This document shows, piece by piece, positions 4,464-53,178 of a stretch of 60,000 nucleotides of DNA (within the stretch, counting starts at the first letter, position 1; every line of letters starts with the position of its first letter). The notes below the pieces were generated by a model. The model was not told the DNA's origin, searched no databases, and saw nothing but the letters and a program-made list of their open reading frames with translations. A program made the translations under genes and the position numbers. Source of the DNA: Botryllus schlosseri (lineage: Eukaryota); assembly GCA_051294905.1 (NCBI GenBank), contig CM119371.1, forward strand, positions 38,256,001-38,316,000, given 5' to 3'.

Positions 4464-6879
4464 CGGCACAACTGTCGGTGTCGTAGTCCCCGCCGTCGTC
4501 GTTGTCCCCGCCGTCGTTGTTGTTGCCGTCGTGTTCCTCATTTCTGTGTGCGGAAGACAAAGAGTCGGTTCAGCGAAACCAGAAATTTGCCTCCTTCAGA
4601 CTTTTACATGCTACTGGATTTTCGGGACGCACAACTAGAACGAGAACTAGGATTACTCACTTTCAAAACAGGCCACAAATTACTAAAACACCGCTAATTC
4701 TATTCAATTACGAAACTAATATATTCGTTTATATTTTTTTATCGGAATTGCGTCGGCTTCAATTTTCGGGTTTCAAATGGGAGGGTTCCGACTAGGGCTG
4801 GGCAAAATCGAGCAACTGAGTGATTCAATTCTGAGTCACGTAATATGCTTCGAGTCGAGTCGAGTAATCGAGTATCACACGTTATGACGTCATATATGAA
4901 TGTAATACGTCAAAGTTCAAATATGTACCGTTTATGCCCCCACAACGAATATAATGCATTTTATCCATGTCTTAAATGGTATTTCGGTATTGTTTCTACC
5001 ATACCGATTTCATTCCATTTGGTGACAATGTTGTGAAATAATCATGACTTCGGAAATGTGCTACATCCAGTAACCTTCGTAGCTTCGTACCATATGTTTC
5101 GTATGCTATGATACCGCCAATCAAGGTTTCAAGGCTTCAGCAGTGAAAATTAGTATCGAAACTATAATTCTTGTTGATAAATTAACTTTCAGTGGCGAGA
5201 AGCGTATAATTTCAGTACTCGAAAAAATCGTATTTTACTACTCGACTCGAATCATTAAAATCAATACTCGATTCAGATTCGAGTACTCGAATCATAGTGC
5301 CCAGCCCTAGTTTCGACCCCGAAAACCCATCCGCTACGCCAGTGCTAGTGCGGTGATGAATTTGAGTTAGCCATCGCTGTGAGAACACCACACAGCAGAA
5401 CGCCGGTATTCACGCCAAACGACGACAGTCGAACAGTGTAGTCTATTTCATCTACGACAATTTTGCGGACTCGTAACTACAGATTTAGAACTATACTTAA
5501 TTCTGGAAATCATCCACTACAACTACAAATTAGAGCTAAAACTACTATGAGAATCAGTAATTAATTTACCACCAACCAAACTGGATTGGTAGTTCGTACA
5601 AGTATGGCCTCGTTTCCCCCCGATACTCACGTTGAATCAGTTGTAGCAGCACGATGGTTCTTATCAATTCCTGCAACCGATTGTTAGGTGGCGGAGCATA
5701 TCGAACTGGCACGTATTGACTCCCTTGTGCGACGTACGCGCTCGCTTGCTGGATCGTAGAAAACTTGTTAATTCGGCGAAATTGTGCTCACGCATATGTT
5801 GAAAGAGATTGTATATATCGTGAAAAGTCAGAAGCCACCTGAGCATTACCACCAGACTTACAGATCCAGCGACGGAGGAAGACCGTCGCTCAGCCATCAA
5901 AGCCGAGTCACCATGGACAGTCGCGTATCGCTACACTCAAAACCTTACAATAACTAAAAAAGATACAGCTTGAAAAAATATATTCGTATTGAAATAAATC
6001 CAGATATATTCGGTAATCGTCAGTAACTATAGTAAAGAATTGAAACTCTGCATTTCAAATTGCCTCCTATAGTGTCTTCGCCATTACTCCTGACGAGTGT
6101 CAGCCGAAAATCCTCGGGTTTATTTCAATGTGAGTATATTATTCGATTGTATATTGAGGTTCTGCACCTCGATAAGCCTCTCGAAGGGTACGGATGTACG
6201 GAAAAACAGCGCCATTGAAAATATGTAGATGATAAATGATTACGGTAGGGTCAGTGATTTGTTGATTAATACAATTTAGTGGTATATGAACAGGCTCTTG
6301 GAGGTACAGAACTTCAATATACAATTGAATAGTATATTCATATTGAAATGAACCCGAATATTTTCGGCTGACACTCGTCAGGGGTAATCGTCAGCAACTA
6401 GTAGAGAATTCAAAAGAACAGCGTATATCAACAATCGTAACACGTCATATTTTGTGTTACGATTGTTGATATACGATGTTCTATTCAATTTAGTGGTAAT
6501 ATGATAGCCCTGAGTCAAACACAACTTTTTTCGAAAAACTCTCAAGAAGGCAAATTACGGAGATTAGACTATAAACTTAGTTCATATACTGACATCGCTA
6601 CACCCGATTGAGTTCTGCAAACGATTAGTGAAATGATGGTGATGCTCATACATGCGCAATCAACAGCGAGTGTTCGCCTGTATGTGGAACAAATTATCAA
6701 AAATGGTTGGGCTGACTTACTTCTCCCTGGTGGGTTGTCGGCCCCTGTCCAGCTTGTTCACCAGTAACTGCAATATCAACAAGTTCAAAAAGACCAATAG
6801 AGACAAATAGTCAGCAAAGATTCCCACCTCCGACGTAAGCGACTGCCACGAGCAGGATGAAACTAGGAACGAATCGCAT
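4464..6879 (-). CDS. Gene A (partial): secreted Thr-rich stalk / C-type-lectin-family paralog. Exons 6828-6879, 6721-6767, 5631-5748, 4464-4543; lectin exons 5-6 not found in window
   Basis: GT-AG exons of 52/47/118/80 nt with phases 1/0/1/0, matching paralogs B and C. Translation: MRFVPSFILLVAVAYVG-VTGEQAGQGPTTHQGE-QASAYVAQGSQYVPVRYAPPPNNRLQELIRTIVLLQLIQ-QMRNTTATTTTAGTTTTAGTTTPTVVP. Confidence 0.85.
4793..5309. mobile_element. hAT MITE family F3 (TAGGGCTGGGCA ends) in gene A intron 3
   Basis: TIRs with TSD gttccgac/gtttcgac; near-identical to 34317-34833 in the opposite orientation. Confidence 0.9.
6086..6119 (+). ncRNA. Minimal hammerhead copy with altered stem III
   Basis: ACUC-CUGACGA-GUGUCAGCC-GAAA-AUCC-UC-GGGU; core intact, stem III palindrome broken. 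Confidence 0.6.
6352..6385 (-). ncRNA. Minimal type I hammerhead ribozyme (intact core)
   Basis: Minus strand reads ACCC-CUGACGA-GUGUCAGCC-GAAA-AUAU-UC-GGGU: full CUGANGA/GAAA/UH core, stem I ACCC/GGGU, palindromic stem III. Confidence 0.8.
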
Positions 6880-20589: not shown

Positions 20590-23500
20590 CTAGGGGCAAT
20601 ATTCGCACACGTAGAACTTGGTGGCGGAGCCAGAGGTAGCCGACAAGTCGATGTTGTTGAAGGTGGGTGCGATCGCAGAGCCGCTAGACGAAGCTGTACC
20701 GTCCGAGTACGTCTCACTGACGCCGGACTCGGTGGCGTAGACTGTGCCATCCGTCCACTTCGCGGTGGTAGTGCCATCGCCGTCTGTGTCCGTCAGCCCC
20801 AGCCAGACTGAGCCTGTGAGTCCCAGGTGGGTTTGGAAGAGCGCCCTGGAAGAGTGAAGAAACGCATTGACAACGCGCTGCGAAATCGTGGCGAACAGGA
20901 TCGCCGAAATAGCGGCATGGTAGAACAGCATGCTAATTGGACGCAGGGCTTGTATCTCTCATGCGACCATAAAGAATATTATGCCAATTCTAAACCACGT
21001 TAAAAATAGTTTGGTATTTTTAAGTCAAGACTAGCACACTGTACCACGCGACAATGGTTGATCACGACTACATAGAAATGTAATTTCGATTCAATCACGT
21101 GAATTAGTACTTCATGATTCGCATTTTGCGATCCGACCGATCGAGGCTTCAAGAAATACTATCGAATATACAGCTTTCATTGATAAATCAGCTAATAGTG
21201 GTAAATAGCATCATCATCATCTTTGGTTTATTAGCAATTTTATCAGTTCAATACACCACAAAAAATGCGATACAATGAAAAGAAAGGAAGATGCCGAAGC
21301 GACTAGGAGTTGTCTATGGAATCGGACACCCACCTATATAATTTCAGAAATACCATCTCTCACTGCTCCACTCGAATCATGAAAATTAATATTCGATTCT
21401 GATTCGAGTGCTCGAATCATTTTTGCCAGACCCAGTCAGTAGTCAGAGAACTGTAATCTTAAATCGCTATACCGGTGTTATTGACATATTTCTTATAGTT
21501 TGTTGCAGTGGCTCCCAACCTTTTCCGACTCATCGCCCCCTCATCAAGCTCGACATATATTTATCGCAGGGTTGTAACCAAGTCACAAGGCTCCGAGTCA
21601 CAAGTCAATCTCACTTTCCTAGTTTTGAGTCGAGTCAAGTCGAGTCATTTTCAATTCACCACCGAGCCAAGTCCAAGTCCGAGTCATCGAGCAGAGGTTC
21701 GAGTCGGAGTCATGGTGTTATGATTCGAGTCCGAGTCCAAGTCATTGTGCTGACTGCTCAGTTTCCAGTTAAGGTCTTTTACAGCTCTTTTGGTGATATC
21801 GAATGCTTCGCATAATATACCAATTATCCCCACAGTTTCTGGTCGCATTTTGAAGTACCAGTACCAATAGACAAAATCCCAATAAGGTGGTTACCCTACT
21901 CTTCTTCGAAACTTCAATGAAATGGCGGAGTCGAGTCGAGTCATATGACTTGGTTCGAGTCATGTGCAATGACTCGAGTCCAAGTCAAGTCAATACACAG
22001 GTTGACTCGAGTCGAGTCGAGTAATTTCCGTATTTTGAGAAAATGACTCGAGTCATTAGAAATTCGTGACTTGAGTTGGACTCGAGTGGAGACTCGAGTC
22101 ATTACAACCCAGATCTATCACCCCCTCTTTTTTCGGATGCGAGAATGACATATTAAGGGGAAATTTGTACTGATGACTCTGATCGCTGGTAAATTGACCA
22201 AGTAAAACAGGCAACTTTTGCGGCGATCCCTAAAAATTCCGGTATCTGATTATACTTTGTGGCGAGTTGACCTATTTTAGTCAATTTTCGCGGTGGTACG
22301 AGAATAACCCGATTTTCACGTGCATTTTGTGGCGGCATTCGGTTGCTGGTTAATTAAATAAATGCATGAATAATCAGAGGTGGTCATAGTAACGAAGTAC
22401 TTCCACATTTAAGAAATACTCAAATAGTTTGTCGCTACTTGGGTACTTACTAAAGTAGATCTAATTTCCCGCTACTTCTACTCGCTATTTCAGTTTCTCA
22501 AGTAGAAGTAGTTGAATTCTCCAATCATACAGAATGGCAGAGGAATTTCAGGGCTGTTTTGACGAAGTATCAACATTTAATTTTCAAGAAAGTTACAAAG
22601 TATCGACGAATATAATTTAGGAAGCGGGTTGCGTGGTTCCGTTTATACCACATTGTCGCCCATATGAAGTATTTCATCACAGTAAATATGGCCCATAATA
22701 ACGTTCCAAACTAAAATTTTGAAATGTAGCATTTACTTATATCTGGAAAAGTGGACTTTGTCTTTTCTTAGCTTTACACCTGTTTTAGCAGGGAGTAAAT
22801 AGGTTCCCGACCCCTGTTCTAGACTATACTTCCGTTTGTGGTTAACAGTCTTCAGCTTTTAGTCGAAACTAGGAATAGAATACTTAGTCAGACAACTCTC
22901 GCGTGTAAGTAAATGGACAACATTACGTCTACTTGAGTACGTACGATGTCTACTTTGATCACCTTTGTCTCCACGTATGGTCAACCTTGAACACGCTTTA
23001 CAAATCTCGAATATTCGATTAGTAATCAAAGCATACATTCGAGTCGAGGTGTTCGGTAGCTTACATAGAGAGGGGTCGTAATTCGTGCGTTGCATTCAAA
23101 TATTTTGTTCGTCTGTACCATGAAGAATGTCGTATTTTTCTGACGGTTCAGTTGCAAAAAGTCTGCACTCACAGCCGGTCCGCCGCGGTCCTGACGTTCT
23201 TATGCGCGAGACCCACTTTGGGGCCGAATGCTGCGCACGCAGCCGCTGCAACTGTCCCAGTCGCCGGAAAGTTACTGGCTTCGTACTGACATCCTTTGTA
23301 GGTTTTCCAGTCGGCCTGCAATGTAGATCAACATTTTGAATAACAGGCGTTTATATCGAACGAGTGCGCGTACCGACTCCTGATAACACACCTATGCTAT
23401 CACACCTACTTTTGAATGTTTTAAATGAGTTTATTTAACTTAGGGATGACGGTCGGTTTCGCTGATTGCTAAAGAAAATGAAAATTTGAATCTATGAGCA

Positions 23501-26500
23501 TTGAGAAGCGATCTGATAGATATGCTGATTCTACTTTTGATTGAATTTTCGGACATACAATCCTGGTGGCATTATAACCATGTTACTGTTTAACACGCTT
23601 TACAATTGAATAGTATATTCATATTTAAATGAACACGAAATGAGCAACTAGGTGAGAATCTCACCCTTGACTCATCCGGTAAACCTTGATGCTTGGCAAT
23701 CAAAGGCCATAAATTCTGCCATTGGCTAACATCTGTTGGATAATCCAGCTTGTGCGAAAAACTATTGAGACTACAGATTTCGATACGCTGGGAGGGGCCG
23801 TTCACACTTTCAAATGTGTGCCGTGGAGTCGAATTTCATCAAAATGCACCAGCCCAGACTGTGTCTACAAAAAGAGTATGTGTAGGCCTACCATCTAAAA
23901 TAGTACATTGAAATCTCTCGTATTTGAATTTTCATGCTGGTGACGTCGTATTTTGTGATACGATTGTTGATATGCAATGTTCTTTTCCAATTCTCTACTA
24001 GTTCAGTTTGTTTCATTAGCAATTTTTATCAGTTCAATACACCACAAAAATTGCGATACAATGAAAAGATAGGAAGGTGTCGAAACGACAAGGAGTAGTC
24101 TTTAGAATCAGACACCCACCTTGGCCTAGACCAGGGGTTCTCATAGGGTGGGCCATGGCCCACTGGTGGGCCACAGAGCATTTTTAGGTGGGCCACAGAG
24201 CTATTTAGAAAAATCAAAATTAATGTAAGTTCAGTTATATTTCTTATGTTTTTGCTAAATATACATTCGTATTATCTAATTATACGTAGGCTATATACAT
24301 AAAGCTTTTCATCCGACTCTGATTAGACGTAGTGGCACGTATGAAGTCAGCTTGTACAAATCGAAAACGTAAGGGAGAAACGGTGGCTTTTTCTACTGGC
24401 TATGACAACCTACAGCTAACAGGACCTAAAATAATTTCAATCGTATAATAGGTCTAACTGGAAGATAATGCTGAAGTAACCAAGTATTCAAGCAGGGTCA
24501 TATGTCGTATGCCGTTGAATGGGATATGTAATGAACTTGCAATGAAGTGGAATTGATGTACAGATTTACTGTACTTCGGCAGGCCGTATTATTGCAAGCT
24601 AAAATTAGCCATAATTGCAAATTATTAGCAACTTCTGGCCGGGGTATACTGCACCACCGCAACGAATCTTAATGGATTGAGGATTTAACGGAGCGCATTA
24701 ATCTTGGAAGTCGGTTTAAAATGTCCGGCCTGGAAATCATTGTACATAATGAAAGAGTCACAGGAATTGATTGTATCATTGGATTGAATATTCTGACATC
24801 GCAACTTTGGTTGTTTTGGTACAAGACGTACAAAGTAGCCTACATCATGCATATGGAAAAATCTTTCTCCACTTCTCTGTAGTACTCCATTCACCAATTA
24901 ATTGTTCGATGCTGGCCCAGAATGATTTTAATATTCCCCACAATAGTATCACTCAAGTCCTAATCGCACAGTGCGGGGATCTCATCATTGTCTTTCGCGA
25001 CGCGAATGGAGCAGCGGACGAAAATAATCTACTTAGGAGTTTTAGCATATGATCTACCAGGGCCGTAACTGGAGGATATTTATTCAACTAGAATTTTTTT
25101 TCGCGCTTCGCGCGATTTCGTATCCCGGGAGATCGGGATTTAAATATCATCACTTAGAGAAAATGCATGCGCATATTTTAGAGAAATAGGCATATCGGCG
25201 CTGTCCATGACCATGCATTAAACAGGATTATGACTGTAAGATATCAGGTGGGCCACAGCACATTTTTAAACCGGAAAATGGGTCACGGCCAAGAAAGGGC
25301 TGAGAACCCCTGGCCTAGACGATGTAAAGAGAAGGCATGTACGCTGAATGAAAAGTAAAAGAATATAGAAAAGAAGAACCAAACTACAAAAAGTTGCTGA
25401 CAATTACCTCTGACGAGTGTCAGCCGAAAATATTCAGGTTCAGTTCAATATGAACATACTGTTTGATCGTATATTGAAGTTCTGTACCTCCAAGAAGCTA
25501 TTCTAATACGCTTTAGCAAATATCCAACACTGTTGTTGTGTAAAACATGCCTTCGTCACATTTTAGCGATAACGACAGCAGCACAATGTAATGGTGTCTT
25601 AAAAATTTTTCCGATTCCGCAGCTCATAATTTGATAAATTGTACCTATTATAATTAGGACGTGAGGTTGAAGGGAAGTGTTCCAAAGTGCAGTGACCTGT
25701 TCGCTGTATGTAAACTGATACTTATTGAAATACCTCTAACGTCGAAATATATTTTACCAAAGGCAGCACTGAAATTAATAAAATTGATGGAGTTTTAGGT
25801 TTACAATCACAGTCGTAATTCGAATTGAGTCATTTCCGTTTTGACCGGTAATAAATTAAAAAAATACACTATAATAAGATCATGGTATCATGGTGAAATA
25901 AATTTCAAAAACGCTCATTCGCTGCAGTAATTAGATTTTCAAGTCGCAGTTTATCAATAGTTTGAGGCTTTTTTGGGGCCGCACAAAATGTTGACGGGCA
26001 ATAGTTTGTCAACTTTCATATTACAGACACCTATGATGTGAACCGTGATGTAACAATAGCAACAAAGACGGATTGAACTGTACTATAGTACAGAATACAG
26101 TTATTCAGAAGTTACACAACTAAAAACAACAAGACTAATATGAGAATTGCAAGTTATAACGAATTACTTCCGTCTGCATAAATTTGATTGTTCAACATGA
26201 TATAGATGGTAACATCAGTTTCTTCAGTAACTTCGGTGTTACCAGGTCGGTGTTGCGTTCGTAAAATCTATGTTTGTTGCAAGCTATTGTTACATTGCGA
26301 ATTTTACGGTCTGCGATTGTAATAACGATCATAGTTTTGTTGTAAATAAACTCTTACGAAGATAACACACGTCACCCACCGATTATTCGCCGTGTCGTTA
26401 CAGACACGGGCATTAAGCGGTAACGCAGTACTTCGATTTTTTGAGTGTGTTTTGCCAATCTGCGTTACATCATGTAGCCTATCTCTGTGCTATTTCAACC

Positions 26501-27358
26501 TTTCTTTTTAAACGTGGGCTCGTATAGTGTGTATAATGTATTTCATGAGCTGGTTTGCATCCGTTTTACGAGTGAAATTGTCATGATAATTTATGGCCGA
26601 AATAGCCCCATCATCAAGCTAAAGTGATATACGTAAAATGCCGGTGGTTGGATTCATCCTACTCGTTGGAAGTGATCCAAATTACTCGTGCATAATTTTT
26701 TAAGCAACTCAACAATGCGATGAAGTTGACAGCAACATTTTAAAGCATATTTTTTTTATCAAATTTATGATTTTCAAACTCTATTAGCTTCACCTCTACA
26801 GGTTGAAACCGAGCCGAATTCGGTGTGCAGCGTTTCATTACCCAAACGAATGCTTTTATAGAGCAGTCAGTAAAATTTGATAAAAAAACGTGTATTTCAG
26901 CAACTGTAAGGTAGGCCACAATTTTGTGTAAACACTAAAAATATGTATCATTCTGAAAACGGTTGAATATCACTGATCTATACTAGCACTCGAATATTGG
27001 GACAAGGGCACTTACCGGAACAACAGTTGTCGTTACCGGTCCCGCCGTTGTTGTCGTTGTTCTTGTTAGCAACCTGCTGATCACTGTATGAGAAGATAAC
27101 CAGTTGGTAATGGTCGTCGAGTCATTTGCCTGGTTAATATATTACACTCACATTTGACAACTTCTACCGTCAGGAGGAGTTGAACCAATCTCTGCGTCTG
27201 ATAATTTGGAGGATACACATATCCGGCGGGAGCGGCTTGTCTCCCGACTACGACTCCCGGGTTGTTGTACTGAATGATAAGAAAGTAGTTATTGCCGGAA
27301 TATCGGAATATGAAGGAATATAGCAGCAAGATAGAGAAGTCCAAATCCACACACACCC

Positions 27359-27410
<52 letters not shown>

Positions 27411-28406
27411 AAGAGGTGGAGAGAGAGAGAGAATCGTTATTTATAAACCGTGCGGTACAACATACATAACAAAAATGCAATTGTGTCAAATATGATACAC
27501 AGATGAGTTTTGCTGCAGTTTCTTCGGACAGGTGTGCGGACCTAGGAGTTTTGGGGTGTGGCATTTGAGGTTTTATACGGGGTATTGATTTGCTGTTTAG
27601 AAATTTGCGGAATATTATTTCCGAATTGCGTTCTTTTCTTGCTGCATAGCGGCAAAATAAAAATTTCGCGGTCATGTCAGGCCGTCCCTGAAAACGAAAT
27701 GTACCGAATTCGACAGCTCTGCAGGAGCTGACAGCGAAATGCTGTCATGTATGTTTCAAACATGATGAACATAAAAATGCATGCGTGATCGATTAAATAG
27801 CGAAGAAAGAAACGAAACAAGCAGACACCTTGTAAATCCTAAAGGTGAACCGTTGGTTTATACAGCGGAACCTTCCAAGTATCTCATACCTTGATAATTT
27901 TAAGAACTGATATATTCGACTTTTTATTGCAACTTTTGTTAAAATTAAGTGCAACTTTCTCACGATTTTAGCGTGACAAAAACTTGCCCTAGTCATAACC
28001 TAACGATATGAATTGCAACCCTATGTCCGAATTAAGCGGAGAATTGTCCGAATGAGCTGTAGTGCAATTGAGCGGAAGATAATGAGTTCAAACGGAGAGG
28101 TATTTCAAATACTGACACCGATATACGTGATAGAATGTTGCACAAGACTTGTACAGTGTTCTTGCGAACACAGTCGCTAGATGTTGTTGACTATCCGCAG
28201 GAATGTAGGACAGATATTCAAAATAAGCCGCGGCGCACTTACCGATCCCTGGTGAGTGCCTGGCTCTTCTCCAGCTTCTTCGCCAATGACTGCAATTAAA
28301 ACCAGCTTAAGAAAAGCAACGCTAACAAACAGTCCCAAAGGCTAAGTTGCTTACCTCCGACATAAGCCACTGCAACAAGGAGGATGAAGCTTGGAACGAA
28401 TCGCAT
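20590..28406 (-). CDS. Gene B: secreted protein with divergent C-type lectin domain, 227 aa. Exons 28355-28406, 28243-28289, 27152-27269, 27016-27083, 23173-23315, 20590-20845
   Basis: Six canonical GT-AG exons (52+47+118+68+143+256 = 684 nt) splice in frame. Signal peptide MRFVPSFILLVAVAYVG, Thr-rich stalk, CTLD motifs WKTYKGCQY, helix Cys, VWLGL, KWTDG, FYVCEYCP*. Confidence 0.9.
21567..22112. mobile_element. hAT MITE rich in GACTCGAGTC repeats, nested in an older CAGTGG element starting about 21506 (gene B intron 5)
   Basis: CAGGGTTGTAA/TTACAACCCAG ends, TSD atttatcg/atctatca. Confidence 0.78.
24132..25312. mobile_element. Non-autonomous hAT element in gene B intron 4
   Basis: CAGGGGTTCTCA/TGAGAACCCCTG TIRs, perfect TSD gcctagac, GGTGGGCCA subterminal repeats. 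Confidence 0.9.
25406..25439 (+). ncRNA. Minimal type I hammerhead ribozyme (intact core, compensatory stem I)
   Basis: ACCU-CUGACGA-GUGUCAGCC-GAAA-AUAU-UC-AGGU; a stem I C-G pair is replaced by U-A relative to the 6352 copy. Confidence 0.8.
27361..27432. repeat. (GA)n microsatellite in gene B intron 2
   Basis: Long GA run; the paralogous site in gene C (about 51568-51585) is a short GA-rich stretch. Confidence 0.95.
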
Positions 28407-39722: not shown

Positions 39723-39929
39723 GCGCTGCACTCTAAAAATGATGTGGTCTCAAATTGAAGGGTAAAACGAAATAAAAATTTTGGTCGCAGCCGTTTGCTT
39801 CAGAACGTCACCGTTATGGAGCTACAGTTTATTGAAATTTCGATAACAACTTCACGCTCCAGCAGTCACGAAGATATCGAACTTTATATAGTTGTCAGCC
39901 GATTAGGTGTTTTCGCACATAATGTTAGA

Positions 39930-41321: not shown

Positions 41322-44300
41322 TTACGGAGGACAGAACTCGCAAACGTAGAAGGCCGTCGATAAACTCATTGGGAACTGAATGGTACTGTAGCTGCTACCG
41401 ATAGCAGTGGCGCCCCCGGAATTATCTCCATCCCCGATCAGAGTCGTGTCGCTGTCTGGGAGGTAATCTGATGAGACATCGCCGTCGAAATTCTCAACCC
41501 ACTGAAAATCGATTTCGTTTACCTCTCCGTCGTCGTCGAGAAGAGGCAACCAAACGGTACCCGTCAATCCTAAGTGGTTCCGGAACAGCGCTCTAATATT
41601 GGAAAGGAATCGTGATGTCATGGTGTCAAGTAGGGTTGCATTTAAAACAATAATCAATTTAAGACAAACAGCTTTAAATCAAGGCCCTTGTTCAAAACAT
41701 GTTTTCTCGTTGTTAGGTGTTTGTTTGTTTAAGCCCCGTCGTCACGAATATTCAATTGTGACGTTATAGTGTGCTGACATTCACAATTGAAAATATAGGG
41801 AAAATATAGCTCCTTTGACGAAATAGGCTTCTAACCTCTGTAGTACACGGACCACAAATATCTTAAACCAAGACTACATCGCCATGAGAGAGAGAGAGTC
41901 TTTATTTTCATCGAACCAAAATACATAACAAACGGCAGTGATGGTGGTACAGAAAACATGCATGCACAGTATTCGGTATTAGATAGGAATGATCGATAAG
42001 ACCGTGAAGGTCATCTAGTCTGATCACACCAGCATCAAACAGGTACACTTGACTCTGAACAGTCTGGCTGTAAAGAAATGTTTAGTTAAAGGAAAATAGA
42101 AAAAAAAATTAAACAATGGTGGCAAATGATCAATGAAGCAATGTCTGGGCGAGGTAGGGCAACAGTGTTAGTGTAACGACAAGAGGTGATCAAGTAGGGC
42201 TTTTTTGAATCTATTATAAGGCAATTCACGGATATGTGGTGGTAATGCATTCCAGATGATAGGTCCCGCATTTTTACGGTCGGCGATCATCATCATCAGA
42301 ACATTCGTTCCGTACCAGCTATCTATATATCTACGTACTATAGCCGGTAAAGGAGAGAGAGAGAGATGTGGTATTCTTTTTCGCCTGCACCATCGAGATG
42401 CTCTGACGACGGAGATGCGATACGGCCTTTATAGTAAGATCATCCAGACTGCACCCCCGGGTTTTTTCTCCTCCATGCCATCCGTGATTGCTGGGCGCCT
42501 AACAGGACAGCCGCGGATACCAGCTTTCGAGTCTTTGGTCTGACTCGGCCGGGGATCGAGCCCACGACCTACCGATCGAGAAGCCGGACGCACAACCATT
42601 ACACTATCTCGCTCGGTTGAACAGGGTATTCCGAGGGTTCCAACCATTCCATCTCGTATACGTCCGCTATATCGGGAGGTAATCGTTCGTAGGCTCATAC
42701 AAAATGTTTTTTGGAAAGTATGTACATACAATTATGGCATCATTATACAACTTGAATAAAACACAATTTTATTTCATATGAAACGGCTTTTGTTTCAAAC
42801 ACTGTTCAAAACACGTTTCAAACAAAGTGTTGTAAACAACCATTTGTTTTGAATGCAGCCCTAGTGTCATGACTAAGGCTGAGTACAATGACTCGAGCAC
42901 GCGGATCTGAATAGAGCAGCGGTTCTCAAAATGTTCAAGACACGCCCCCCTTTATGATGATGGAAAATTTCGCGCGTTCCCTCGTCATGATATTACAAAA
43001 TATTAGAAATAACGCACAGAATGCAGCAACCCTAACGGTTAGGTTGATGGCATGGAAGGTTATGGCTGTTGATGAGAGAGTTCTCGGATATGAAATTTGG
43101 ACTACACTCAGAGCAGTTACTAGGAAACAGACGTAAATCGTGCACAGCGCGAAAAATCCTTCAGTTGACTGCAGTTTCGCGCCCCCTTCAGATGGTTCCA
43201 CACCCGCCAAGGGGGTCCCGCCCCCAGTTTGAGAACCACAGTAACAGCGTATTATTTCCTTTGAATCGCGTCGATTAGTGAGAGACAATTCCTTCGAGGA
43301 ACGAAATTATGCGCTCGCAGCCACTAATGGCTATATCAGACGTAGCTTGCGAAGGTGGCGTTTTCGTTTGCTTCAACAGACTTGTCTGGGACAATGCTGA
43401 AGAAGCAAACAAAATTACTATTGGGTAGCAGATAGCGGAGAAGCCTAAGCAGATTTTTAATCTCTGTGTGCCTATTACGTATTATATATCTTGATGAATA
43501 TTGACGCTCTTACACACAACGCAGTTTACTACCATACGTCTTACTTTCTTTCGTTGCTGCTATCCGTTGCAATGAAAACTATGCTCCAGCTGAGCGAGTC
43601 CGCTTGACTCTCGGTGATGTCAATCAATCCTTGTTAAACCATAGTGTCCTATATCGTGCGGACACGAGCAAATATCACGGTTCAGTGAAATTGGTCTACG
43701 TCACACTTTCCATTTGGTCAAAGGTAACTTTACGGCCATATTTGACCGACTTGCCGAGCGCTAAATTCGATGAAACGGGTATCAATGGAAAGCCGCTGGT
43801 GTACTGATGATTAAAATATAGATTTATTCTGCTCATGGTCATGGAACCCTAAAAAATCAGCCTCGAATTTGGCCTTGTGATAGAGTTTTGACATTGTGAC
43901 GCAACCATTCTGTCTCGAAAAACGACAGTAAATTTAAGAAGAAAGAGCCAGACAGCATTATTGCGTCACAATTCAAAACTCGATTACAATGCCAAATTCG
44001 AGGCTGATTTTGGGGGGTTTCAGGCCTTGACATCTCAATTTCTCGTATCCCAACATATGAAACATGTTGTCCAAAGCTACGCACGTCAGTAAAATCAGAT
44101 GTCTGTGAAGTCGCGTTGATTCCACAGCATGGCCAGAATACACCGTAGTAAAATCAAATGGGCGTGATTGCAAAGATAGCAAATTAGCTTTAATCTGATG
44201 TAGAGCTTGCATTATCAGTCTCAAAAAGGCATATATTTGTACTGGCGTCATAATGGGTGAAATTCGTAGCGTAATACTCTATTCCAGGTGTCGCCAACCT

Positions 44301-47300
44301 TTTTACCACCAATGGCTACTAGGTACTGATTAACAGTGTTGGGATGACTCGAGTCATGACTTGAATCGAGTCAGATTCGGGTCAACTTTTTTGTATGACT
44401 TGACTTGACTTGAGTCACTTTGCAAAAATGACTTGACTTGACTTGACTTGGTGCTCCAGAAATGTGGATTGACTCGTGACTCGGAGGAAAATTTACGAGT
44501 CAATTTCAAGTCATTATAAGTAAACCGTGTCAATTAAATCACAGTGACTTATGCATGTTCAGTTTTGTTCGCAATACGACGGTGTCACTTGTGAGAGCAA
44601 CCAGTCATTCACTGATTGTACGTTTCACTGATCTTCCATTGTTACATCACAAATAACTTGACTGCAAACGAAACGATCACAGCTTATGTTGTCGTAGTAG
44701 CAGTAGGTAACTCTAATAGAAACGTATCTTTGCTTCTTAGACGGCTCAGTGCTTGCAGGCAGTGCCACCTCTTCACCAACACTCGTGTAAGCTTTTTCTT
44801 CAAGTCTAACGAATATATGTAATTTTTGCGTTTTTGTCGTCACGGATATGTAGATGGGTAGTGTATTGCACCACATCAATTTGTTCAACTTCTCGAGGCT
44901 TCGTATTCGATCCAGTGTATTGACTGATAATAACAGACTGTAGCATGTAGGTATACAGTTACTCGCGTATTTTATTAGCAGTTCTAGGTGTGCGTGAGCG
45001 ATACCACACCTTTTTGCATGTATGTTTAACTTTATATTTGTTATATGATTCAAGATAAATCACCAATTAATCTGTACTTCACCCAGTTAGTCAAATATAA
45101 TGACTTCGCATCTTTACTCATACTTCTAAAATTCAATTTGACTTGACTTGTGACTTGACTTGTCTGACTCGACTTGACTCGAGTCACCTTTAATATTCGA
45201 TTGACTTGACTTGACTCGAGTCAAAATGTGCAATGACTTGAGATGACTCGGGACTCGAAGGTAGTGACTTGATCCCAACACTGATGATTAATGCGACTGG
45301 CTACCAGTTACGCCCGATATTTATAAGTTTTCAGTTGAATTTCTTCATTTAGACCAGTTGTTAAAACTTTTGTAGACACGCCCCCTTTATGATAGTGAAA
45401 AATGTCGCACCCCATGTCGCCAAATGCAACCGGAATGCTAGCAATCCCAACGGATAGTTTGATGGGCATGGAAGGTTATGACTGTTGATGAGAGATTTCC
45501 CCAAATACGAAGTATGAAAATAAATATGAAATTCAGACTATACACAGAGCAATAAGTATAAATTGCAGATACATAAATCTTCCGTTGACCGTTTTCACAC
45601 CCCGAGGGATTAGGCATCAACATCGTTAAATATTTATACGCTACGTGCAACCATTGCACATGGCTATGTTTAAAAAACATTCAACTGGTATTCTTTTCGA
45701 TTTTCGCGCGATGTACCCCCAGCTCTATGTATAGTCTAAATCCCATATTTGAGACGTGTCTCAACAGACATAACATCTTCCATGCCACAAAACAATGCGT
45801 TGGGATTGCAAATATTCTGTTGTTACTGTTTTCATTAATGTTTGATACCACGATAAGGGGAGGCCAAAGTGTTCACCGTCAACAAGGTGCATGCATCGAA
45901 AAAGGGTCCACAACCACTGCTCTATTCAAAACGAATACCTCAGTTACTCGATTTAGCCAAAGCCTATTCCTGACAGTCGCCACATACGTTGAAGCAAATT
46001 ACATTACTCACTGACGATCGGGTGCCGTCCTCACGTTCTTATGGGCAAGAACGGAGCCTTTATCCTTGCAATCTACACTAGCTTCAAATAAAAAGTTTGG
46101 AGTCATCGTTGTATGATAGCGACATCCTTTGTATTCGTTCCAATCCTCGAAATCTTCCTGGAATATCAGAGAGTTTTCTGAGATTCTGACCGCAATTTTC
46201 GAGATCGTGAACCCCTGGCCTGTACCAATACTCTCGCACAGTCCTGATATTTATCCCTAACTAGTACCGTAATGACTTATGAGTGGGGCGATTTTTTTGA
46301 CATAAAAACGAAAGATTTTGATCTAAAAAATTATACTTTTGACTTTTTTTGACATTAAAAACTCAATTTTGACCAAATTTTGAACTCACGTAGGTAAATT
46401 AGGAGTTTTCTCACAAAATGGTAGAATTGTGCTACTTATCGTCATTTCTGGTTGGAACTGTCAGTCATGACGAGGTAGTTAGGCCTGAGCTAGCTTTTTT
46501 GACTTGAAAAATAATAAATTTTTACATGAAAAAACTTTATATCCACTAAATCTGGACCGATGAAGAATTCCAGTGGGTGCATCACGCATTATGGAAGACA
46601 TAATAAAAATTTGTATTAGTTATACGAAAAATACTTTCCTTACATTCCGAGGGTAGGAAGTGCCTGCCTTACTAAGTTGATTGCCAAGAATGGAGAAAGA
46701 ACGTTCAACAGTTGCAGATGTTAGCTGGTAACACTGAAGTTGCGTGTACAGTACACAACTGGTGACACGCCGTGTTTCTTCATTCCGGCAATTTTGTCTG
46801 CATCATAATTTTTCATCATGCGCTTGTTGATTTGAAAACCAATGCCCATTGCCCACGCAGACTTGCTTCAGTTAGGAAATTGCGGCACGATGAGCATAAC
46901 ACCACGCTAACCAATTTGTTTCATTTGGCCGTTTATGATTCGCAATGAGCAGATAATGGGCTGTTTACAACGGTAGGCCGATAAATTGGGCTACAAGCTA
47001 TAACATATCAATGATAAAAGTTCATCCACAGTGCAAACATCTACGATACAAACGAAATGGTGGTTGAAAGAAAATTTTGACTCTGTACACAATTTTGACA
47101 TTTTTTGACCTATCGCTACAATTTTGACAAAACTGACTTTTTTCGACATGTCAAAAAAAATCGCCCTATTTCTGAGTATAAAAATGAATTTATCCGATGT
47201 AAGTTGCATTTGATATTGCTTGCACCCCAGCAGGTACCCCTACGATTCACCCTATTGAAGAGCACTGCTAGTTTAGATATATAAGCAACATAGATGCAAA

Positions 47301-50300
47301 CACGTGATTGCATGGTTGGACAACCGTAGTCTGCTACCAATTTATCGCAGATTCGTAAACAAATATAGTAATGTTATAACTTGCGAACAGAGGTAAAATG
47401 TATTTGAACTGGTTGCTATTGTCGCATTGATATATACTATTATCTGCTCAAGGCACTGCAGACATCCTGAAATTGTCCTTAAATGTGTAATATCGTCAAT
47501 GCTCGGATTGTTCGCACCAATTACTATTTCCTGCTGTGGACCAACTGTGCAGTTTTGTTTTGCGAATCTACTAGTAGGTTATTTATCTATAGTGCAAGAA
47601 ACTTCAGGTAACATCAGTAATAGCAGATATAGCAGCCTTGAAATCGAACTTGCCACGGGATTGTCGGTACTCGGGCAGACAAAAAGAAGTATCTCCGAAT
47701 ATTTCGGCTCAATTGCAAGTACAAACAGCGATTTCTGAGACCTGTCAATAATGCTTCCAGTTGCGAGATAGCGCAGTGGTATAACCCACAGCTGCAACAT
47801 CAATGGGTCGCGGGTTCGAGTCCGACCGAGGTCGACTCCGGAATGCCTACCTTAGTCTTGGAGGTTTATCTAGTCTCCTCCTCGCCAACTCATACGTGTA
47901 AACGGTGTCTTATAAAAGCCTCGAAGTGGACCGTGCTACAAGTCGGCAGACTCGGAATAAAAATAAAGAAAATTGACCTGGTGTAAATGACCATAATAGT
48001 CGACAAGCACCTTGAATACCGCAAACAACAACAAAAATAATGCTTCAGGCGGGAGTTTAGAATTAAGATACGAATAGCACTCTTGTGATAAGTTTAATCA
48101 AGTCGATTTTATCGAGACGTGTGGGATTCAAGTTTCATGTAAACCTGTTTAGTTAAGTTTGTCATATTTTCAGTCGGTTCGGTACCAAAATCATTCATTG
48201 ATAGCAACCAGTAATGCTAACCGGTTCGCTGATCTCAAAACAATTCGTTAGACGGTTGAATAGCAAAAGCGCTAACCGCTTTAATCCGACCTCAAAAGTA
48301 TATCAATTAATCGTCCTTATTATAGGCACAATTATTCAAATATTGAGATGCTTTGATACACCATGCAGTAACTTATGTTACTAAATACGTGAATAAGGAC
48401 AAGTTTCGCAATATAACACTGTTTTCCAATTGCGAAAGAGTTTTCAAGGGTAACATAGTTAGGCCTATGATTCTGTCAGCATCGTGTGTCCGAAAGCTCG
48501 AGCAAATGCAGTAACAGAAAATCAATTACCTGATCGCTGCACACCGATTCAAATTTTTAGCTTGTTGTCAGAATCGGCGCATCGGACTGTCATCTCTAAT
48601 TTTGATAAATTCCTTCAAAACATTCAAAAGTAGGCGCGATAGTATAGGTGCGTCATCAGGAATCAGTACTCGCACTCGTTCGTTATAAACGACAGTCACT
48701 TAAAAATGTTGATCTACATTTCAGCCCGATTGAAAAACCTATACAAAGGATGTAAGTACGAAGCCAGTAAATCACCCGCGACTGACATAGTTGCAGAGAA
48801 CACGTTACCGGATATCGGCCCCCTAGTGGGACTCATGGAGGTGAGCGCCAGGATAGCGGGGGGTCGGCTGTGAGTGACGAGATTTTTGTAACATCACCGG
48901 CCAAATAGGTGTATCTACGATTTTAATCCAACCCCCTATATGAGACGCCTCGATAAAATCGACTTGTTTAGACTTTTCAATAAAGTGCTAGTCGTATCTT
49001 AATTTTCTACTCCCATTTGAAGCAGTTTTGACAGGTCTCAGAAATCGCTGTTTGTCTTGAGAATTGAGTTGAAATATAGGGACTTATATGGACTCTAATA
49101 CTGTCTCGGTAATCACTATATTTGTACTTGCATTTGAACGGGAATTTACTTCTTCTGTACTTAATTACCAACAATGTCTAGTGTCGCCAAATCCAGTTTT
49201 CAATAATGGTGTAGCAGCTAAGACATAGTCGTGACCAATCACGGGGCAAGTTCGATTTCATGTCTGCTATACCGGCTATTACTTATGCTACCTAAAGGTT
49301 CTTGTACTATAGATAAGTAATCTACTGATAGATTCGCATAACGTAATTTCACAGTTGGCCAACCTGATACTGCTGGAAGTAGGAAATGGAGCAAAAATCC
49401 GAGCATTGCCGATATTCAACATTTAAGGACTCTATTTCGGGTTGACTTCATTGCCCCGAGCAGACATTGATATATATTTCAGGAATCAGTGCTGGAGTAG
49501 CTTTCGGGAAAGACCAGTTCTAATACATTTTGCGCTTTGTTCGCATGTTATAATATTACCATATTTGTTTGCGAAGCTACGATAAATTGGTAGTGGACTT
49601 CGGTTGCCCAACCATACAGTCACGTGTTTGCATGTATCTGAGGATTAGTAACCTGAAGTACTGCTCTTCAACAGGCTGTATCGTAGGGGTACCTGTTAGG
49701 ATGTAACAGAACTGTCCAACGGTGTACCAATTCTATGAGAGGAGGTGCAAGGGTGTCCCTGTTACCGCAACCAGTATACACAATCCATATTGCATCTAAT
49801 GATCTCATTTCTTACTGATTACAGTGCTAGTTAGAGCGGAATATCAGGACTGGGCGAGAGTATTGATGCAAACCTGGGGTTCTCAAGCTATTTTTTTTTA
49901 TCGTGGACCCGTTCAAGTATTGTGGGCGGTTGCGCACGCCCCCAAAAAATTGAGAATTTAATGACATGCCTGAAATCAGCTAACTAATAACTTGGCAAGG
50001 TAGTCACTAAACTAGTGAGGGTTAAACATTATAATATACTTGTTAGTCATCATATTCTCGCACATGTTAGTCATGCACATTAATCGTGCACTTTTACAGT
50101 TTTTGTGTAAACATTAACAATATGTAACCTTCCGAAAATGATTGAAGAACACGCTTGATACACCCCCTCGAATACTGCGGGGATGCAGCCCCTTACCGGA
50201 ATCACAGTAGTTGCCATTGTCGATTCCGTTGTTGTCGTGGTTGTTCTCACGAGAATGTCACTGATTACTGTATAAAAGATATCCAGTTAGTAATGGTGGA

Positions 50301-53178
50301 CACCAGGGATTTAAGAAAATAATTAGACAACCCGAATCGAATAAATGGACATAATAATTCGCATGATTCGAGTCAAGTAAGGAGCGTTGTGTTTTACGAG
50401 TATATTGAATTTATACGCTCTTTGTCACGAAGAGTTCATTATTGAACGAGAATTATAGGTTCAATACCATTTACCAGTCTCAAAGGCTGTTAACCTAGAT
50501 CAGTGATTCCCAACCTTTTTTCTTCATTCCCCACTACCAAAAACTGCTATTCTTTAAAATAGGGTTCCAATATTTTGAGATCCTAAAAAAGGATCTGAAA
50601 AATCCAGGAAAACTAGTGATTTTGAAAACTTTTCAACCGATGGTATTGCGATGACTAAAAAAATGTTATCACTTCGACTCGACTTTTTACGAAACTGTTT
50701 ACTGCGTTGCTGTTTTCGTGGCATTCAAATTCTTTTCAGAGAAGAAGATGACAATTTGCCAAAAAAGAGAACATTTAGGCGTCCTCTGAGGACACTTCAA
50801 ATCTGTTATGCTCGATACATACATCCCAGAGCAGGTAACTGGTAACGGTAATCCCGCAATTGTCTCCGTAAATATGCAGATAGACTATCGTGTAGGCCTA
50901 TATAATGTTTAAAAAACACGACTATTTCCCACCGGAAACCATTGAATTCCCCGCCGGTCGAGAACCACTGACCTAGATTGTTCTTATGGTAGCATATACG
51001 GAACATGTAGTACAAAGATATGCACGTTAACTGAAATGACATATCGTGATTAACTCACAGCACTGTCGCGAAGTGCCATGGAATAGATATGGTCGAAAAA
51101 TACCAAATGATCTAAGAAATGCACGACTGCAGTTGCCATGGCATGAAATCCTTGTGGTGGCATAACAGGTATATATTTGAATTTTACACGTCTTTCATAC
51201 TTTCATGTCGTCATGATTAGTGATACTCGAACTCCCGAAGCGTGACACTTGATTCAGAAACGAATACCTCAGTTACTGGATTTTACCCATAACTTTAACC
51301 GCCACCGATTGCTTCCCTACATGAATAACGATGTGTCCGGTATCATGTTACTCACATTTGATCATTTCCACCCTCAGGAGGAGTTGGATAATGTTCTGAA
51401 ACTGATTGTTAGGAGGGGGAACATATCCGGCTGGAGCGGGTTGTCTCTCTTCAACGACCCCCGGAGTGTCGTACTGAATGAAAAGAAACTTGTTAATGCC
51501 GTAAAGTTGCACTCGCGCAAATATTAGGCGAGATAGTGAGAACGTATAGAGAACCATACAGACACCTGAGAGAGACAGGGAGAGAATATTTTTTTGTCAA
51601 CCGTGTATTATACAACAACAAAGCAAAATTCGATTGCGGGCACACGGTATACGGATATGCAACCTATTAACGTTAACTGTCTTCCAAAGTATTTTGTAAC
51701 CGATAGTAATTACAGACAGTCTTTCATAGGTGATGAGCACCACTAGAGTTTTACAATACTGCTGCTATTACTCCTAATAACAGTAAGACTGGATTCCCGA
51801 TGAAGCAAAGCCATCAAAGCTGAGCCAATCAATATACTAGATAAATACAATATAATATGTAATGCAGGCGTCGCCAACCCTTTTTTCTATTCCCGGCCGC
51901 ATTTCGATTACTTATGTAGCCTACGGCCGCATTCCATGGCATCGTCGCAATGGAATAACTGGACGCCCATACCAATGTGAAACTTATCATGTCCATTTCC
52001 GGTGAACCCCTGACTAATGTAGTGTTTCGTATCGGGTTACCAAGCGCACCGAAGTCCATAGTATACAACTGTTCATGTTCGATGTTCGTGTTATGAATAG
52101 TTACTGGGATCGGTCGGATTCAAGAATGAATTTCGTCATTATTATTAGTAGTTTCACATATTATTATCAAACATTTATCCATTGTCAGCCCATGTGATCA
52201 GATTCACCGGAAGATTTGATGGGGGGAGTGTTTCGAAAATTTAGGGCAGGTGATAAATAACGATGCATCTTCGGATGGACCGATTGTTATTAGTCACTTT
52301 GTTGCATGCTCATACGTCTTGACCTCCAATCAGGACTGTCGGTATAATGAAAAGATACTGAAATCGGCCTAACGAATTTCTTTCGTGACGAGCAAACGAT
52401 TGCAAGTTGGTATTCCTCTATAGGGTGCATCATTTTCTTATGCTGTGCGCATTTGTACTGGGGGTATCAGATTGTTTAGGGTGCTATTACATTAAAATCG
52501 AAATATGTAGTCGCATTGAGTCGCGACTAGCGCGATGAAAATTTCGAGATGATTTTACATCTCTCAAAAATTCGAGAGTTAATTCGTAAATTCAATCTGC
52601 ATGTTGATGGCAGCGAACACATATTAATTCAATTACGTATCCACGGTCGCACAAATTTCCTTACACAGCCACAGGTTGGCCACCCCTGCTATAATGTAAT
52701 AAAAATCCAAAGTCGGGTAAAATACCAGTATTACAGTAAAATAATTCGAATTAAATTAATAGTGTAGGGATACGGTTATTTGGAATATTTCATATAGAAT
52801 TTAGCGGTAGCTTGATTGTAGAGAGTCAAAGTATGTAAACTAAGAAGCTCAGCCGGTAAGGTATTTCATATACTGACGCCGATGTACGTGACTGAATTTC
52901 GCAAAATGCTCGGACGGTGTTCCTGCAAACGCAAGGACAAGATGAATGGAAAATCGTGTTTTATGCTTGTCGGTTTCCGAAGGAATGTGGGACAGAGTAT
53001 CAAAATATAGCAACGGCATACTTACTGATCCCTGATTGGTACATGGCTCTCTTTCAGCTTCCTCGCCGATAACTGCAATGCGAACGAGTTTAGAAAGTCA
53101 TGCAAACAGTCACCAGAGACACTTACCTCCGACATAAGCCACCGCTACAAGGAGAATGAAGCTTGGAACTAATCGCAT
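41322..53178 (-). CDS. Gene C: secreted protein with divergent acidic C-type lectin domain, 234 aa. Exons 53127-53178, 53026-53072, 51356-51473, 50197-50267, 46012-46157, 41322-41592
   Basis: Six GT-AG exons (52+47+118+71+146+271 = 705 nt) in frame, same phases as gene B. MRLVPSFILLVAVAYVG...DWNEYKGCRY...DC...LAHKNVRTAPDRQALFRNHLGLTGTVWLPL...FQW...FYVCEFCPP*. Confidence 0.88.
41886..42270 (-). mobile_element. 5'-truncated L2/Crack-like LINE 3' end
   Basis: Encodes AGPIIWNALPPHIRELPYNRFKKALLDHLLSLH*; AATAAA followed by a (CT)n tail. Confidence 0.8.
42348..42617 (-). mobile_element. tRNA-derived SINE (family S2); related fragment at about 31940-32060 (+)
   Basis: A box TAGTGTAATGG, B-box-like GGCTCGATCCC, (CT)n tail. 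Confidence 0.75.
42917..43241. mobile_element. hAT-like MITE; related copy at about 45355-45760
   Basis: CAGCGGTTCTCAAA/TTTGAGAACCACAG ends; TSD not evident. Confidence 0.65.
44334..45283. mobile_element. hAT MITE with (GACTT)n subterminal repeats
   Basis: CAGTGTTGGGAT/ATCCCAACACTG TIRs, TSD ctgattaa/atgattaa. Confidence 0.88.
46284..47168. mobile_element. Non-autonomous hAT-like element in gene C intron 4
   Basis: TGGGGCGATTTTTTTGACAT/ATGTCAAAAAAAATCGCCCTA TIRs, TSD cttatgag/tttctgag. Confidence 0.8.
47763..48035 (+). mobile_element. tRNA-derived SINE S1, full length
   Basis: A box TAGCGCAGTGG, B box GGTTCGAGTCC, (CAA)n tail, flanking direct repeat aataatgcttc. Confidence 0.88.
48725..48869 (+). 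pseudogene. Inverted pseudo-exon homologous to gene B exon 5 (N-terminal half of the CTLD)
   Basis: Aligns with the reverse complement of 23173-23315 and about 200 nt of adjacent intron. Retains cag/ and /gtgagt sites; TGG>TGA stop, 2-nt insertion, second Cys lost. Confidence 0.88.
50501..50970. mobile_element. hAT MITE nested in an old F3 copy (about 50325-51290), gene C intron 3
   Basis: CAGTGATTCCCAACC/GGTCGAGAACCACTG ends, perfect TSD acctagat. Confidence 0.85.
51865..52688. mobile_element. hAT MITE F2 in gene C intron 2
   Basis: CAGGCGTCGCCAACC/GGTTGGCCACCCCTG ends; homologous to 17010-17800. Confidence 0.82.

What the first reader, a model, noticed from the sequence alone, without database searches (positions are those of the whole stretch)
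48480..48900. Inverted dead copy of gene B's lectin exon inside gene C: exon replacement or chimeric gene
Seen: 48725-48869 (+) matches gene B exon 5, including both splice sites and about 200 nt of upstream intron, but is inverted and carries a stop and a frameshift. By eye it is much closer to B exon 5 than gene C's functional exon 5 (46012-46157) is. Exons 1-4 and their flanks align well between B and C. Inference: C arose as a B-like duplicate whose own exon 5 was flipped out of use, so exons 1-4 now splice to the lectin exons of a more divergent copy. That would be domain swapping by inversion.
Basis: partly seen in the sequence, partly recalled or inferred. Interest (0 to 1): 0.7.

Follow-up and report, generated by a model that had tools for sequence, protein, structure and literature searches.

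The report
Hybrid lectin gene with flipped exon
One gene in a cluster of lectin-like genes has a front half like its neighbour's, a far more diverged back half, and a dead back-to-front copy of the neighbour's fifth exon inside an intron, which likely records a fusion of two genes plus a small inversion, but no RNA from the hybrid gene was found.

Summary
48725-48869 (+) is a dead, inverted copy of gene B's exon 5 (104/143 identical; stop and 2-nt insertion) with about 310 nt of B-like upstream intron. It is as far from B (intron 76.6%) as C's introns 1-4 are (75.4%). C exons 5-6 are near saturation (pS 0.71 against 0.45), their flanks do not align with B, and other genomic paralogs match C exon 5 at 83-88%. 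So C is probably a hybrid. It implies the earlier order exon 4, dead exon, arm, exon 5. An inversion alone cannot remove B-type exon 6 or the donor's front half; a deletion, probably joining at about 46210, is needed. The inversion only removed an out-of-frame exon. C's frame is intact and its exons 1-3 show purifying selection, but 4 of 15 listed RNA runs (6-13% of each) gave no read from C exon 5, while B was well expressed in one. A short motif in exon 4 favours a rival history. The scan had no look-alike of this DNA; it noted other tandem fusions in this genome.

The parts
48725..48869 (+). P: dead, inverted B-type exon 5 (stop at codon 3, 2-nt insertion; AG and GT kept)
   Evidence: pS 0.24, pN 0.29 to B exon 5
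48410..48724 (+). B-like 3' end of intron 4, inverted with P
   Evidence: 232/303 identical to B 23625-23316
48901..49889 (+). Right arm of the inverted duplication X; starts about 30 nt after P's donor site
   Evidence: single-copy-like depth at 90% likeness
46202..48152 (-). Left arm of X, interrupted by two later insertions
   Evidence: 527/650 identical to the right arm over four core blocks
46274..47219 (.). Insertion in the left arm; element with 24-nt terminal inverted repeats (46275-47177), second copy at 39894-40590
   Evidence: high contig depth
47758..48035 (.). Insertion in the left arm; short repeat with target-site-like duplication, second copy at 11643-11920
   Evidence: high depth
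48153..48409 (.). Unassigned stretch between the left arm and P's upstream intron; inner inversion boundary
   Evidence: no other match in the window
46209..46211 (.). Candidate fusion joint between arm X and donor-type intron (inferred; 2-nt overlap by eye)
   Evidence: a paralog contig matches 46114-46210 at 84.5% and then departs
46158..46210 (-). Donor-type 3' end of intron 4
   Evidence: shared with paralog contigs of run X1; no match to B
46012..46157 (-). Gene C exon 5, donor type, three extra codons at its start
   Evidence: paralogs at 83-88%
41322..41592 (-). Gene C exon 6, donor type, with stop codon
   Evidence: pS 0.70 to B exon 6
50197..50267 (-). Gene C exon 4 (Thr-rich linker)
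51356..51473 (-). Gene C exon 3
53026..53072 (-). Gene C exon 2
53127..53178 (-). Gene C exon 1 (signal-peptide-like, by inspection)
20590..28406 (-). Gene B, six exons, 227 aa; exon 5 at 23173-23315; expressed
   Evidence: 614 reads run from exon 1 into B exon 2 in X12
4464..6879 (-). Gene A exons 1-4 (outgroup; exons 5-6 not in the window)

Best explanation
Gene C carries B-like exons 1-4, much more diverged exons 5-6 and a dead inverted B-type exon 5 between two inverted arms, and it likely arose when a deletion fused a B-like duplicate to the back half of an older paralog and a small inversion likely flipped the duplicate's own exon 5 out of the reading path. Shown: the three-part anatomy, equal age of P and C's introns 1-4, the arms, the open six-exon frame. 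Inferred: (1) tandem duplication gave a B-like gene upstream of a donor-type gene; (2) a non-homologous deletion from its intron 5 to about 52 nt before the donor's exon 5 removed its exon 6 and the donor's exons 1-4; (3) an inversion of about 0.75-1.7 kb with one staggered break copied segment X and turned P round. With both exons 5 in sense the product is out of frame, and skipping exon 5 is out of frame too, so the inversion would restore one clean splice path, exon 4 to donor exon 5 to exon 6. The order of steps 2 and 3 is not resolved. The product would be a secreted 234-aa protein with a C-type-lectin-like domain that lacks the usual sugar-binding motifs.
For: Intron identity to B: P upstream 232/303, C introns 1-4 pooled 295/391, Fisher p 0.79. 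Same-exon control: 4-fold sites B5-P 2/15 differ, B5-C5 8/10, p 0.002; B-C exons 1-4 17/43 against exons 5-6 20/27, p 0.007. All 4 comparisons of C exon 5 or 6 flanks with B score no better than shuffles (34, 52, 140, 53 of 200 shuffles reach them). 8 of 13 contigs laid from run X1 are under 90% alike; the 7 non-self pieces shown are 83-88% to C exon 5, and one leaves C exactly where arm X begins. Arms 527/650 identical, slightly younger than the B-C split (p 0.024). P has dN/dS about 1.2. C branch of exons 1-3: dS 0.31, dN 0.07, dN below dS in 1964 of 2000 bootstraps. Neutral substitution keeps C's frame and splice sites in 0.4-0.9% of 3000 runs. Alternative paths stop at codon 128 and 161. 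A contig of another sample runs collinearly over 49248-50225.
Against: No RNA from C: 16, 2 and 2 reads on exon 5 in X12, X14, X15, all 90-95% alike, confined to 46115-46147 and from another paralog; depth 0 in bin 45651-46091 and about one partial read in the exon 4 bin for X12 and X16. The expressed paralog with a C-type exon 5 start has an exon 4 end closer to C's than to B's (10 of 11 nt plus the last 6, compared by eye), while A and B share the other motif. pS of B5-P (0.24) is lower than B-C exons 1-4 (0.45), though not significantly (p 0.11). The joint rests on one paralog contig, which may have its own insertion there; another leaves at 46185. For exons 5-6 alone the neutral simulation keeps the frame in 8-11% of runs. 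The 5' halves of the donor-type paralogs were not seen.
Confidence: 0.58

Rival explanations
1. C is an ordinary donor-type gene whose front and back halves have always belonged together. B is the hybrid, or 5' halves were homogenised by gene conversion, and the inverted cassette (arm, P, arm) is an insertion into C's intron 4.
For: The expressed paralog with a C-type exon 5 start has an exon 4 end resembling C's, not B's. B-C exon 4 is the least alike of exons 1-4 and A-B exon 4 is closer. Two donor-type paralogs differ from C exon 5 at 18-33% of third positions, no more than B and C exons 1-4 do (0.43), so they could share C's 5' half. P is, if anything, closer to B than C exons 1-4 are at synonymous sites.
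Against: It needs P's age to equal the B-C split by coincidence or one complex event. P keeps the 3' end of B-type intron 4 and C keeps its 5' end at equal identity, the two halves of one intron. The exon 4 resemblance covers about 20 nt of a low-complexity exon and fits equally if that paralog descends from the hybrid.
Confidence: 0.2
2. The ancestor had one front half and two tandem back halves (alternative last exons). B kept the first pair; C lost the first exon 6 and inverted the first exon 5, so no second promoter or donor front half was ever deleted.
For: The inferred pre-inversion order is exon 4, P, X, exon 5, all in sense. An earlier unchecked note describes a headless back-half duplicate behind another lectin gene in this genome (e1-9825477).
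Against: No donor-type exon 5 or 6 lies downstream of B in the 13.7 kb before gene A. An expressed donor-type paralog has its own exon 4.
Confidence: 0.08
3. The rearrangement is as described but C is not, or no longer, one transcribed gene: the two halves are neighbouring remnants or a recently silenced hybrid.
For: No C-derived read in the 4 RNA runs laid, including one where B gave 614 junction reads.
Against: Six open exons, all ten splice dinucleotides canonical; purifying selection on the C branch; 0.4-0.9% chance under neutral substitution alone. Only 4 of 15 RNA runs and 6-13% of each were read.
Confidence: 0.11
4. No hybrid at all: C exons 5-6 are B's orthologous exons evolving fast under positive selection, and P is a later stray copy.
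For: Lectin-like recognition domains often evolve fast (general knowledge). dN is higher in exons 5-6 (0.56) than in exons 1-4 (0.22).
Against: Synonymous sites are near saturation (dS about 2.2 against 0.68) and the flanks do not align; the same exon in P has dS 0.29 to B; other paralogs match C exon 5 at 83-88%.
Confidence: 0.03

Closest known systems
Chimeric genes from tandem duplication, including duplication followed by secondary deletion (Drosophila yakuba, PMC5460883; passages seen)
   Same: 5' part and promoter of one gene joined in frame to the 3' part of a neighbour, with a joint in non-coding DNA.
   Different: Here both parents are members of one family, the event is old (about 25% intron divergence), a relic of the replaced exon survives inverted, and expression was not found.
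Inversions with inverted duplications at the breakpoints, attributed to staggered breaks (PMC1885836; passages seen)
   Same: Inverted copies of apparently non-repetitive DNA at both ends of the flipped segment; only one break staggered; duplicates about 81% alike (88 +/- 5% in the paper).
   Different: Those are chromosome-scale inversions polarised with outgroup genomes; this one is under 2 kb, lies inside one intron and has no outgroup check.
Alternative transposition of hAT elements at maize p1/p2 (PMC8225341; passages seen)
   Same: Deletions and inversions between tandem paralogs; a hAT-like terminus lies at the outer end of both arms.
   Different: The joint lies about 9 nt inside the terminus-like motif, not at its end; the likeness beyond the terminus is no better than shuffles.
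Invertible domain switches such as phage Mu Gin and plasmid shufflons (recalled, no call)
   Same: Superficially: constant front part, an inverted alternative cassette, inverted repeats.
   Different: No short identical recombination sites, arms 19% diverged, the cassette is dead, and the live exon lies outside the invertible part. It is a one-way relic, not a switch.
C-type lectin-like domain proteins (RegIV, PDB 2kv3; Pfam PF00059)
   Same: Exon 6 profile matches RegIV at E 0.0023 and its 3 of 3 hits are C-type lectin folds; atlas features point to Lectin_C.
   Different: No Pfam Lectin_C hit for any of 6 exon peptides; EPN/QPD, WND and the inner cysteine pair are absent in B and C (motifs recalled).

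Membership tests
Chimeric gene from fusion of tandem paralogs | 5' and 3' parts have different histories | tested here: met
   pS 0.45 against 0.71; flanks align only for exons 1-4 and P
Chimeric gene from fusion of tandem paralogs | Parts join in frame with canonical splice sites | tested here: met
   234-codon frame, ten canonical sites
Chimeric gene from fusion of tandem paralogs | A definable joint | tested here: inconclusive
   One paralog contig departs at 46210, where arm X begins; another departs at 46185
Chimeric gene from fusion of tandem paralogs | One transcript spans both parts | tested here: inconclusive
   No C exon 5 read in 4 of 15 RNA runs, 6-13% of each read; C is not seen expressed at all
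Chimeric gene from fusion of tandem paralogs | The donor lineage has a different 5' half | not testable with these tools
   No genome held; three protein searches found no full-length relative; one 20-nt exon 4 end points the other way
Staggered-break inversion | Inverted duplication at the two breakpoints | tested here: met
   Arms 46202-48152 and 48901-49889, 527/650 identical
Staggered-break inversion | The duplicated DNA is not a dispersed repeat | tested here: inconclusive
   Depth over the right arm 8-10 in X5 and 0-2 in X7, against thousands over repeats, but only at 90% likeness; one weak further hit in the window, E 0.001
Staggered-break inversion | Outgroup shows the uninverted, single-copy state | not testable with these tools
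   No related genome available; B's intron 5 does not align with X
Invertible domain switch | Both orientations give a working product | tested here: not met
   P is broken; even an intact B-type exon 5 before C exon 5 stops at codon 161
Invertible domain switch | Identical recombination sites around the cassette | tested here: not met
   Arms are 81% alike and one holds two insertions
hAT alternative transposition | Breakpoint exactly at an element terminus | tested here: not met
   Joint lies about 9 nt inside the motif; terminus likeness 30 of 2000 shuffles for the right arm, 252 of 2000 for the left
C-type lectin-like domain | Sequence profile or fold match | tested here: inconclusive
   E 0.0023 to RegIV; atlas 0.92 for B, 0.82 for C; no Pfam hit; exon-6-only model pLDDT 54 gave no fold match
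Calcium-dependent sugar-binding C-type lectin | EPN or QPD and WND motifs, inner disulfide (recalled) | tested here: not met
   Absent from both translations

The most novel reading that the evidence does not exclude
A sub-2-kb inversion rescued the reading frame of a newly fused gene by turning a frame-breaking exon round, and the resulting hybrid then founded the donor-type branch of this lectin-like family, including the expressed paralog whose exon 4 resembles C's. Microinversion would then be a route of exon removal in gene-family birth, with the whole history still legible in one intron.
Probability: 0.15. Interest if true: 0.55.

Novelty: new variant of a known kind. Interest (0 to 1): 0.32.

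Why it matters
Hybrid genes in tandem clusters and inversions with duplicated breakpoints are both known. What is unusual is that one intron keeps the replaced exon, the inversion's duplicated arms and a candidate fusion joint, so the steps of a domain exchange can be dated against each other. If C is expressed, it is a clear case of an inversion removing an exon and saving a fused gene, in an uncharacterised family of secreted lectin-like proteins. Without expression or function it stays a well-preserved local history, not a new mechanism. Two searches for this combination found no matching paper in the held open-access library, which lacks most subscription journals.

Tried and rejected
No whole genome is held, so no family tree. 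Three searches for full-length relatives gave none; the exhaustive search gave 2 unnamed single-exon proteins at about 40%. Pfam: no lectin hit in 6 exon peptides. The exon-6 model was poor (pLDDT 54) and its fold search uninformative. Rfam: 0 hits in 45900-50400. No RNA holder was listed by the run index; this is not used as evidence. In one search only 15 of 161 joints were shown, so the lack of a listed splice joint or strand change is not used; depth is. The idea that C exon 5 uses a cryptic acceptor was dropped: an expressed paralog has the same three extra codons. The idea that a hAT terminus orders the events was dropped as weak. Low depth of X7 over 48297-50060 was not taken as a deletion, since both X5 and X7 are patchy. 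Assembly artefact rejected: arms are 19% diverged, and contigs cross 46210 (X1, possibly the assembly's source) and 49889 (X5, another sample). The organism was not determined; 'sea squirt' comes from unchecked earlier notes. Papers, 51 other than the three read were seen as listings only; no supplements were opened.

Full report
Setting. The window is animal-type DNA of about 40% G+C, rich in repeats. No whole genome is held. I did not determine the organism; earlier unchecked notes call it sea-squirt-like. Three paralogs lie on the minus strand: A (exons 1-4 at 6879-4464; exons 5-6 not in the window), B (six exons, 28406-20590, 227 aa) and C (six exons, 53178-41322, 234 aa). All splice sites are AG/GT and phases match. 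A scan with every exon found no further copy in the window except P.

Observation. P (48725-48869, +) keeps both splice sites, is 104/143 identical to B exon 5, and has TGA at codon 3 and a 2-nt insertion. The inverted match to B spans 494 columns at 72%, E 2e-80, including about 310 nt of upstream intron (232/303; best of 200 shuffles 37 against 267). C exon 5 matches B exon 5 at 79/134 with 21 gap columns.

Ages. Intron stretches of B against C introns 1-4 give 41/53, 122/163, 62/82 and 70/93, pooled 75.4%, against 76.6% for P's intron (Fisher p 0.79). These stretches were chosen from local hits, so all are biased upward alike. Synonymous difference pS is 0.45 [0.33-0.56] for B-C exons 1-4, 0.71 [0.62-0.82] for exons 5-6, 0.24 [0.11-0.40] for B5-P and 0.71 for B5-C5. 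At 4-fold sites the contrasts give p 0.007 (exons 1-4 against 5-6) and p 0.002 (P against C5); P against exons 1-4 gives p 0.11. P is the internal control: exon 5 is not fast in itself. All 4 comparisons of C exon 5 or 6 flanks with B are at shuffle level. In DNA run X1, 13 contigs lay on the exon 5 region at 80% likeness, 8 of them under 90% alike; the 7 non-self pieces shown are 83-88% identical to C. So C exons 5-6 belong to a separate, multi-member branch, here called donor type.

P sits between two inverted arms, 46202-48152 and 48901-49889, 527/650 identical over four core blocks; the left arm holds two later repeat insertions. The right arm starts about 30 nt after P's donor site, where likeness to B ends. 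Read in C's sense the order is exon 4, inverted X, inverted P, X, exon 5. Under either a staggered break or recombination between two old copies of X, the earlier order was exon 4, P, X, exon 5 (inference). Depth over the right arm is 8-10 in X5 and 0-2 in X7, against thousands over repeats, so X is not a young repeat; older copies under 90% alike were not tested. The arms are slightly younger than the B-C split (81.1% against 75.9%, p 0.024), unless conversion between them lowered their divergence. P shows no purifying selection (dN 0.36, dS 0.29), which fits death soon after the duplication. The pattern matches the staggered-break model, in which 17 of 29 fly inversions carry inverted duplications, often from one breakpoint only (PMC1885836, 12 of 21 passages seen).

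Why inversion is not the swap. C exon 5 lies outside the arms, and neither a B-type exon 6 nor donor exons 1-4 lie between P and C exon 5 or elsewhere in the window. A deletion, or an insertion of the B-like block, is needed. One paralog contig matches C over 46114-46210 (84.5%) and then departs, exactly where the left arm begins; another departs at 46185. I take 46210 as the candidate joint, on one contig only. The join is out of register (intron 5 to intron 4), so it is not unequal crossing-over between aligned paralogs (inference). Frames explain why the inversion matters: exon 5 is phase 0 to 2, so an intact B-type exon 5 before C exon 5 stops at codon 161, and skipping exon 5 stops at codon 128. 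A hAT-like terminus lies at both outer ends, but the likeness is weak (30 and 252 of 2000 shuffles reach it; none beyond the terminus), so alternative transposition (PMC8225341, 12 of 30 passages seen) is not supported and the order of deletion and inversion stays open.

Is C alive? For: with A as outgroup, the C branch of exons 1-3 (72 codons) has dS 0.31 and dN 0.07; dN is below dS in 1964 of 2000 bootstraps; C-specific changes are 8 synonymous and 9 not (p 0.04). Neutral substitution at 0.11-0.14 per site leaves the frame and ten splice dinucleotides intact in 0.4-0.9% of 3000 runs for the whole gene, but in 8-11% for exons 5-6 alone. Against: 15 RNA runs were listed and 4 laid, 6-13% of each. 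In X12 and X16 the bin holding the 3' 80 nt of exon 5 has depth 0 and the exon 4 bin about one partial read. In X12, X14 and X15, 16, 2 and 2 reads touch exon 5; all are 90-95% alike, cover only 46115-46147 and continue into another paralog's sequence. The same X12 sample gave 614 reads running from exon 1 into B's exon 2 (30 of 30 letters equal to B). Low depth of about 1-2 in the exon 3 bins could not be assigned. So the exon 4 to exon 5 junction is not shown, and C is silent or rare in these samples.

A result against my reading. The expressed paralog has C's three extra codons at the start of exon 5, and its exon 4 end resembles C's more than B's (by eye, about 20 nt), while A and B share the other motif. 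Two donor-type exons differ from C exon 5 at only 18-33% of third positions. Either these paralogs descend from the hybrid, or C's halves always belonged together and B or conversion explains the pattern. I give the latter 0.2.

Other individuals. A contig of run X5 (another sample, library not on record) covers 49248-50225 with 3 differences and one gap, so the right arm and exon 4 have the same orientation there; it does not reach P. X1 crosses 46210 without a difference but may be the assembly's source.

The protein. By inspection: signal-like start, short N-terminal part, Thr-rich linker, and a domain with four cysteines and a WLGL or WLPL motif. A four-sequence exon 6 profile hits 3 solved sequences, all C-type lectin folds, best E 0.0023; atlas features agree for B (0.92, 137 of 256 shared) and weakly for C (0.82). 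Pfam gives no lectin hit, the fold test failed for low confidence, and the usual sugar-binding motifs (recalled) are absent. 'Lectin-like' is a fold label, not a shown activity.

Comparison and verdict. It works like a chimeric gene from tandem duplication plus secondary deletion (PMC5460883, 12 of 24 passages seen) with a staggered-break type microinversion inside it. It is not an invertible switch. Two searches for an inverted relic exon in such a hybrid found nothing relevant (0 papers; 3 unrelated). Earlier scan notes hold no look-alike of this DNA but do describe other tandem fusions in this genome (unchecked). New variant of a known kind; interest 0.32.

Noticed in passing
window 24133-25312: hAT-type element in B intron 4 with 12-nt terminal inverted repeats and an 8-nt target-site duplication.
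   Followed up: partly
window 41410-41450: 21 reads in X12 carry a variant at 41430 on a short stretch of C exon 6, also seen in one X7 contig: probably another expressed donor-type paralog.
   Followed up: partly
window 48297-50060: Run X7 has depth 0-2 here against 10-24 on nearby unique pieces; a haplotype without the inverted cassette is possible, but coverage is patchy.
   Followed up: no
window 47758-48035 and 11643-11920: Short repeat; in X16, 89 reads begin at 47763 behind an adapter-like end, as if repeat transcripts start there; no Rfam hit.
   Followed up: partly
window 38843-39722: Tandem duplication of 440 nt at 95% identity.
   Followed up: no
window 36043-36485: Short-period repeat array arranged as an inverted pair.
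   Followed up: no
window 28406-28243: Gene B is well expressed in X12 but gives no depth in X16, so it is likely tissue- or stage-specific.
   Followed up: no
window 6879-6828, 28406-28355, 53178-53127: The 17-residue first exon is identical in A and B and differs by one residue in C, far more conserved than the rest of the protein.
   Followed up: no
P0002: This distant relative keeps the inner cysteine pair that B and C lack.
   Followed up: no
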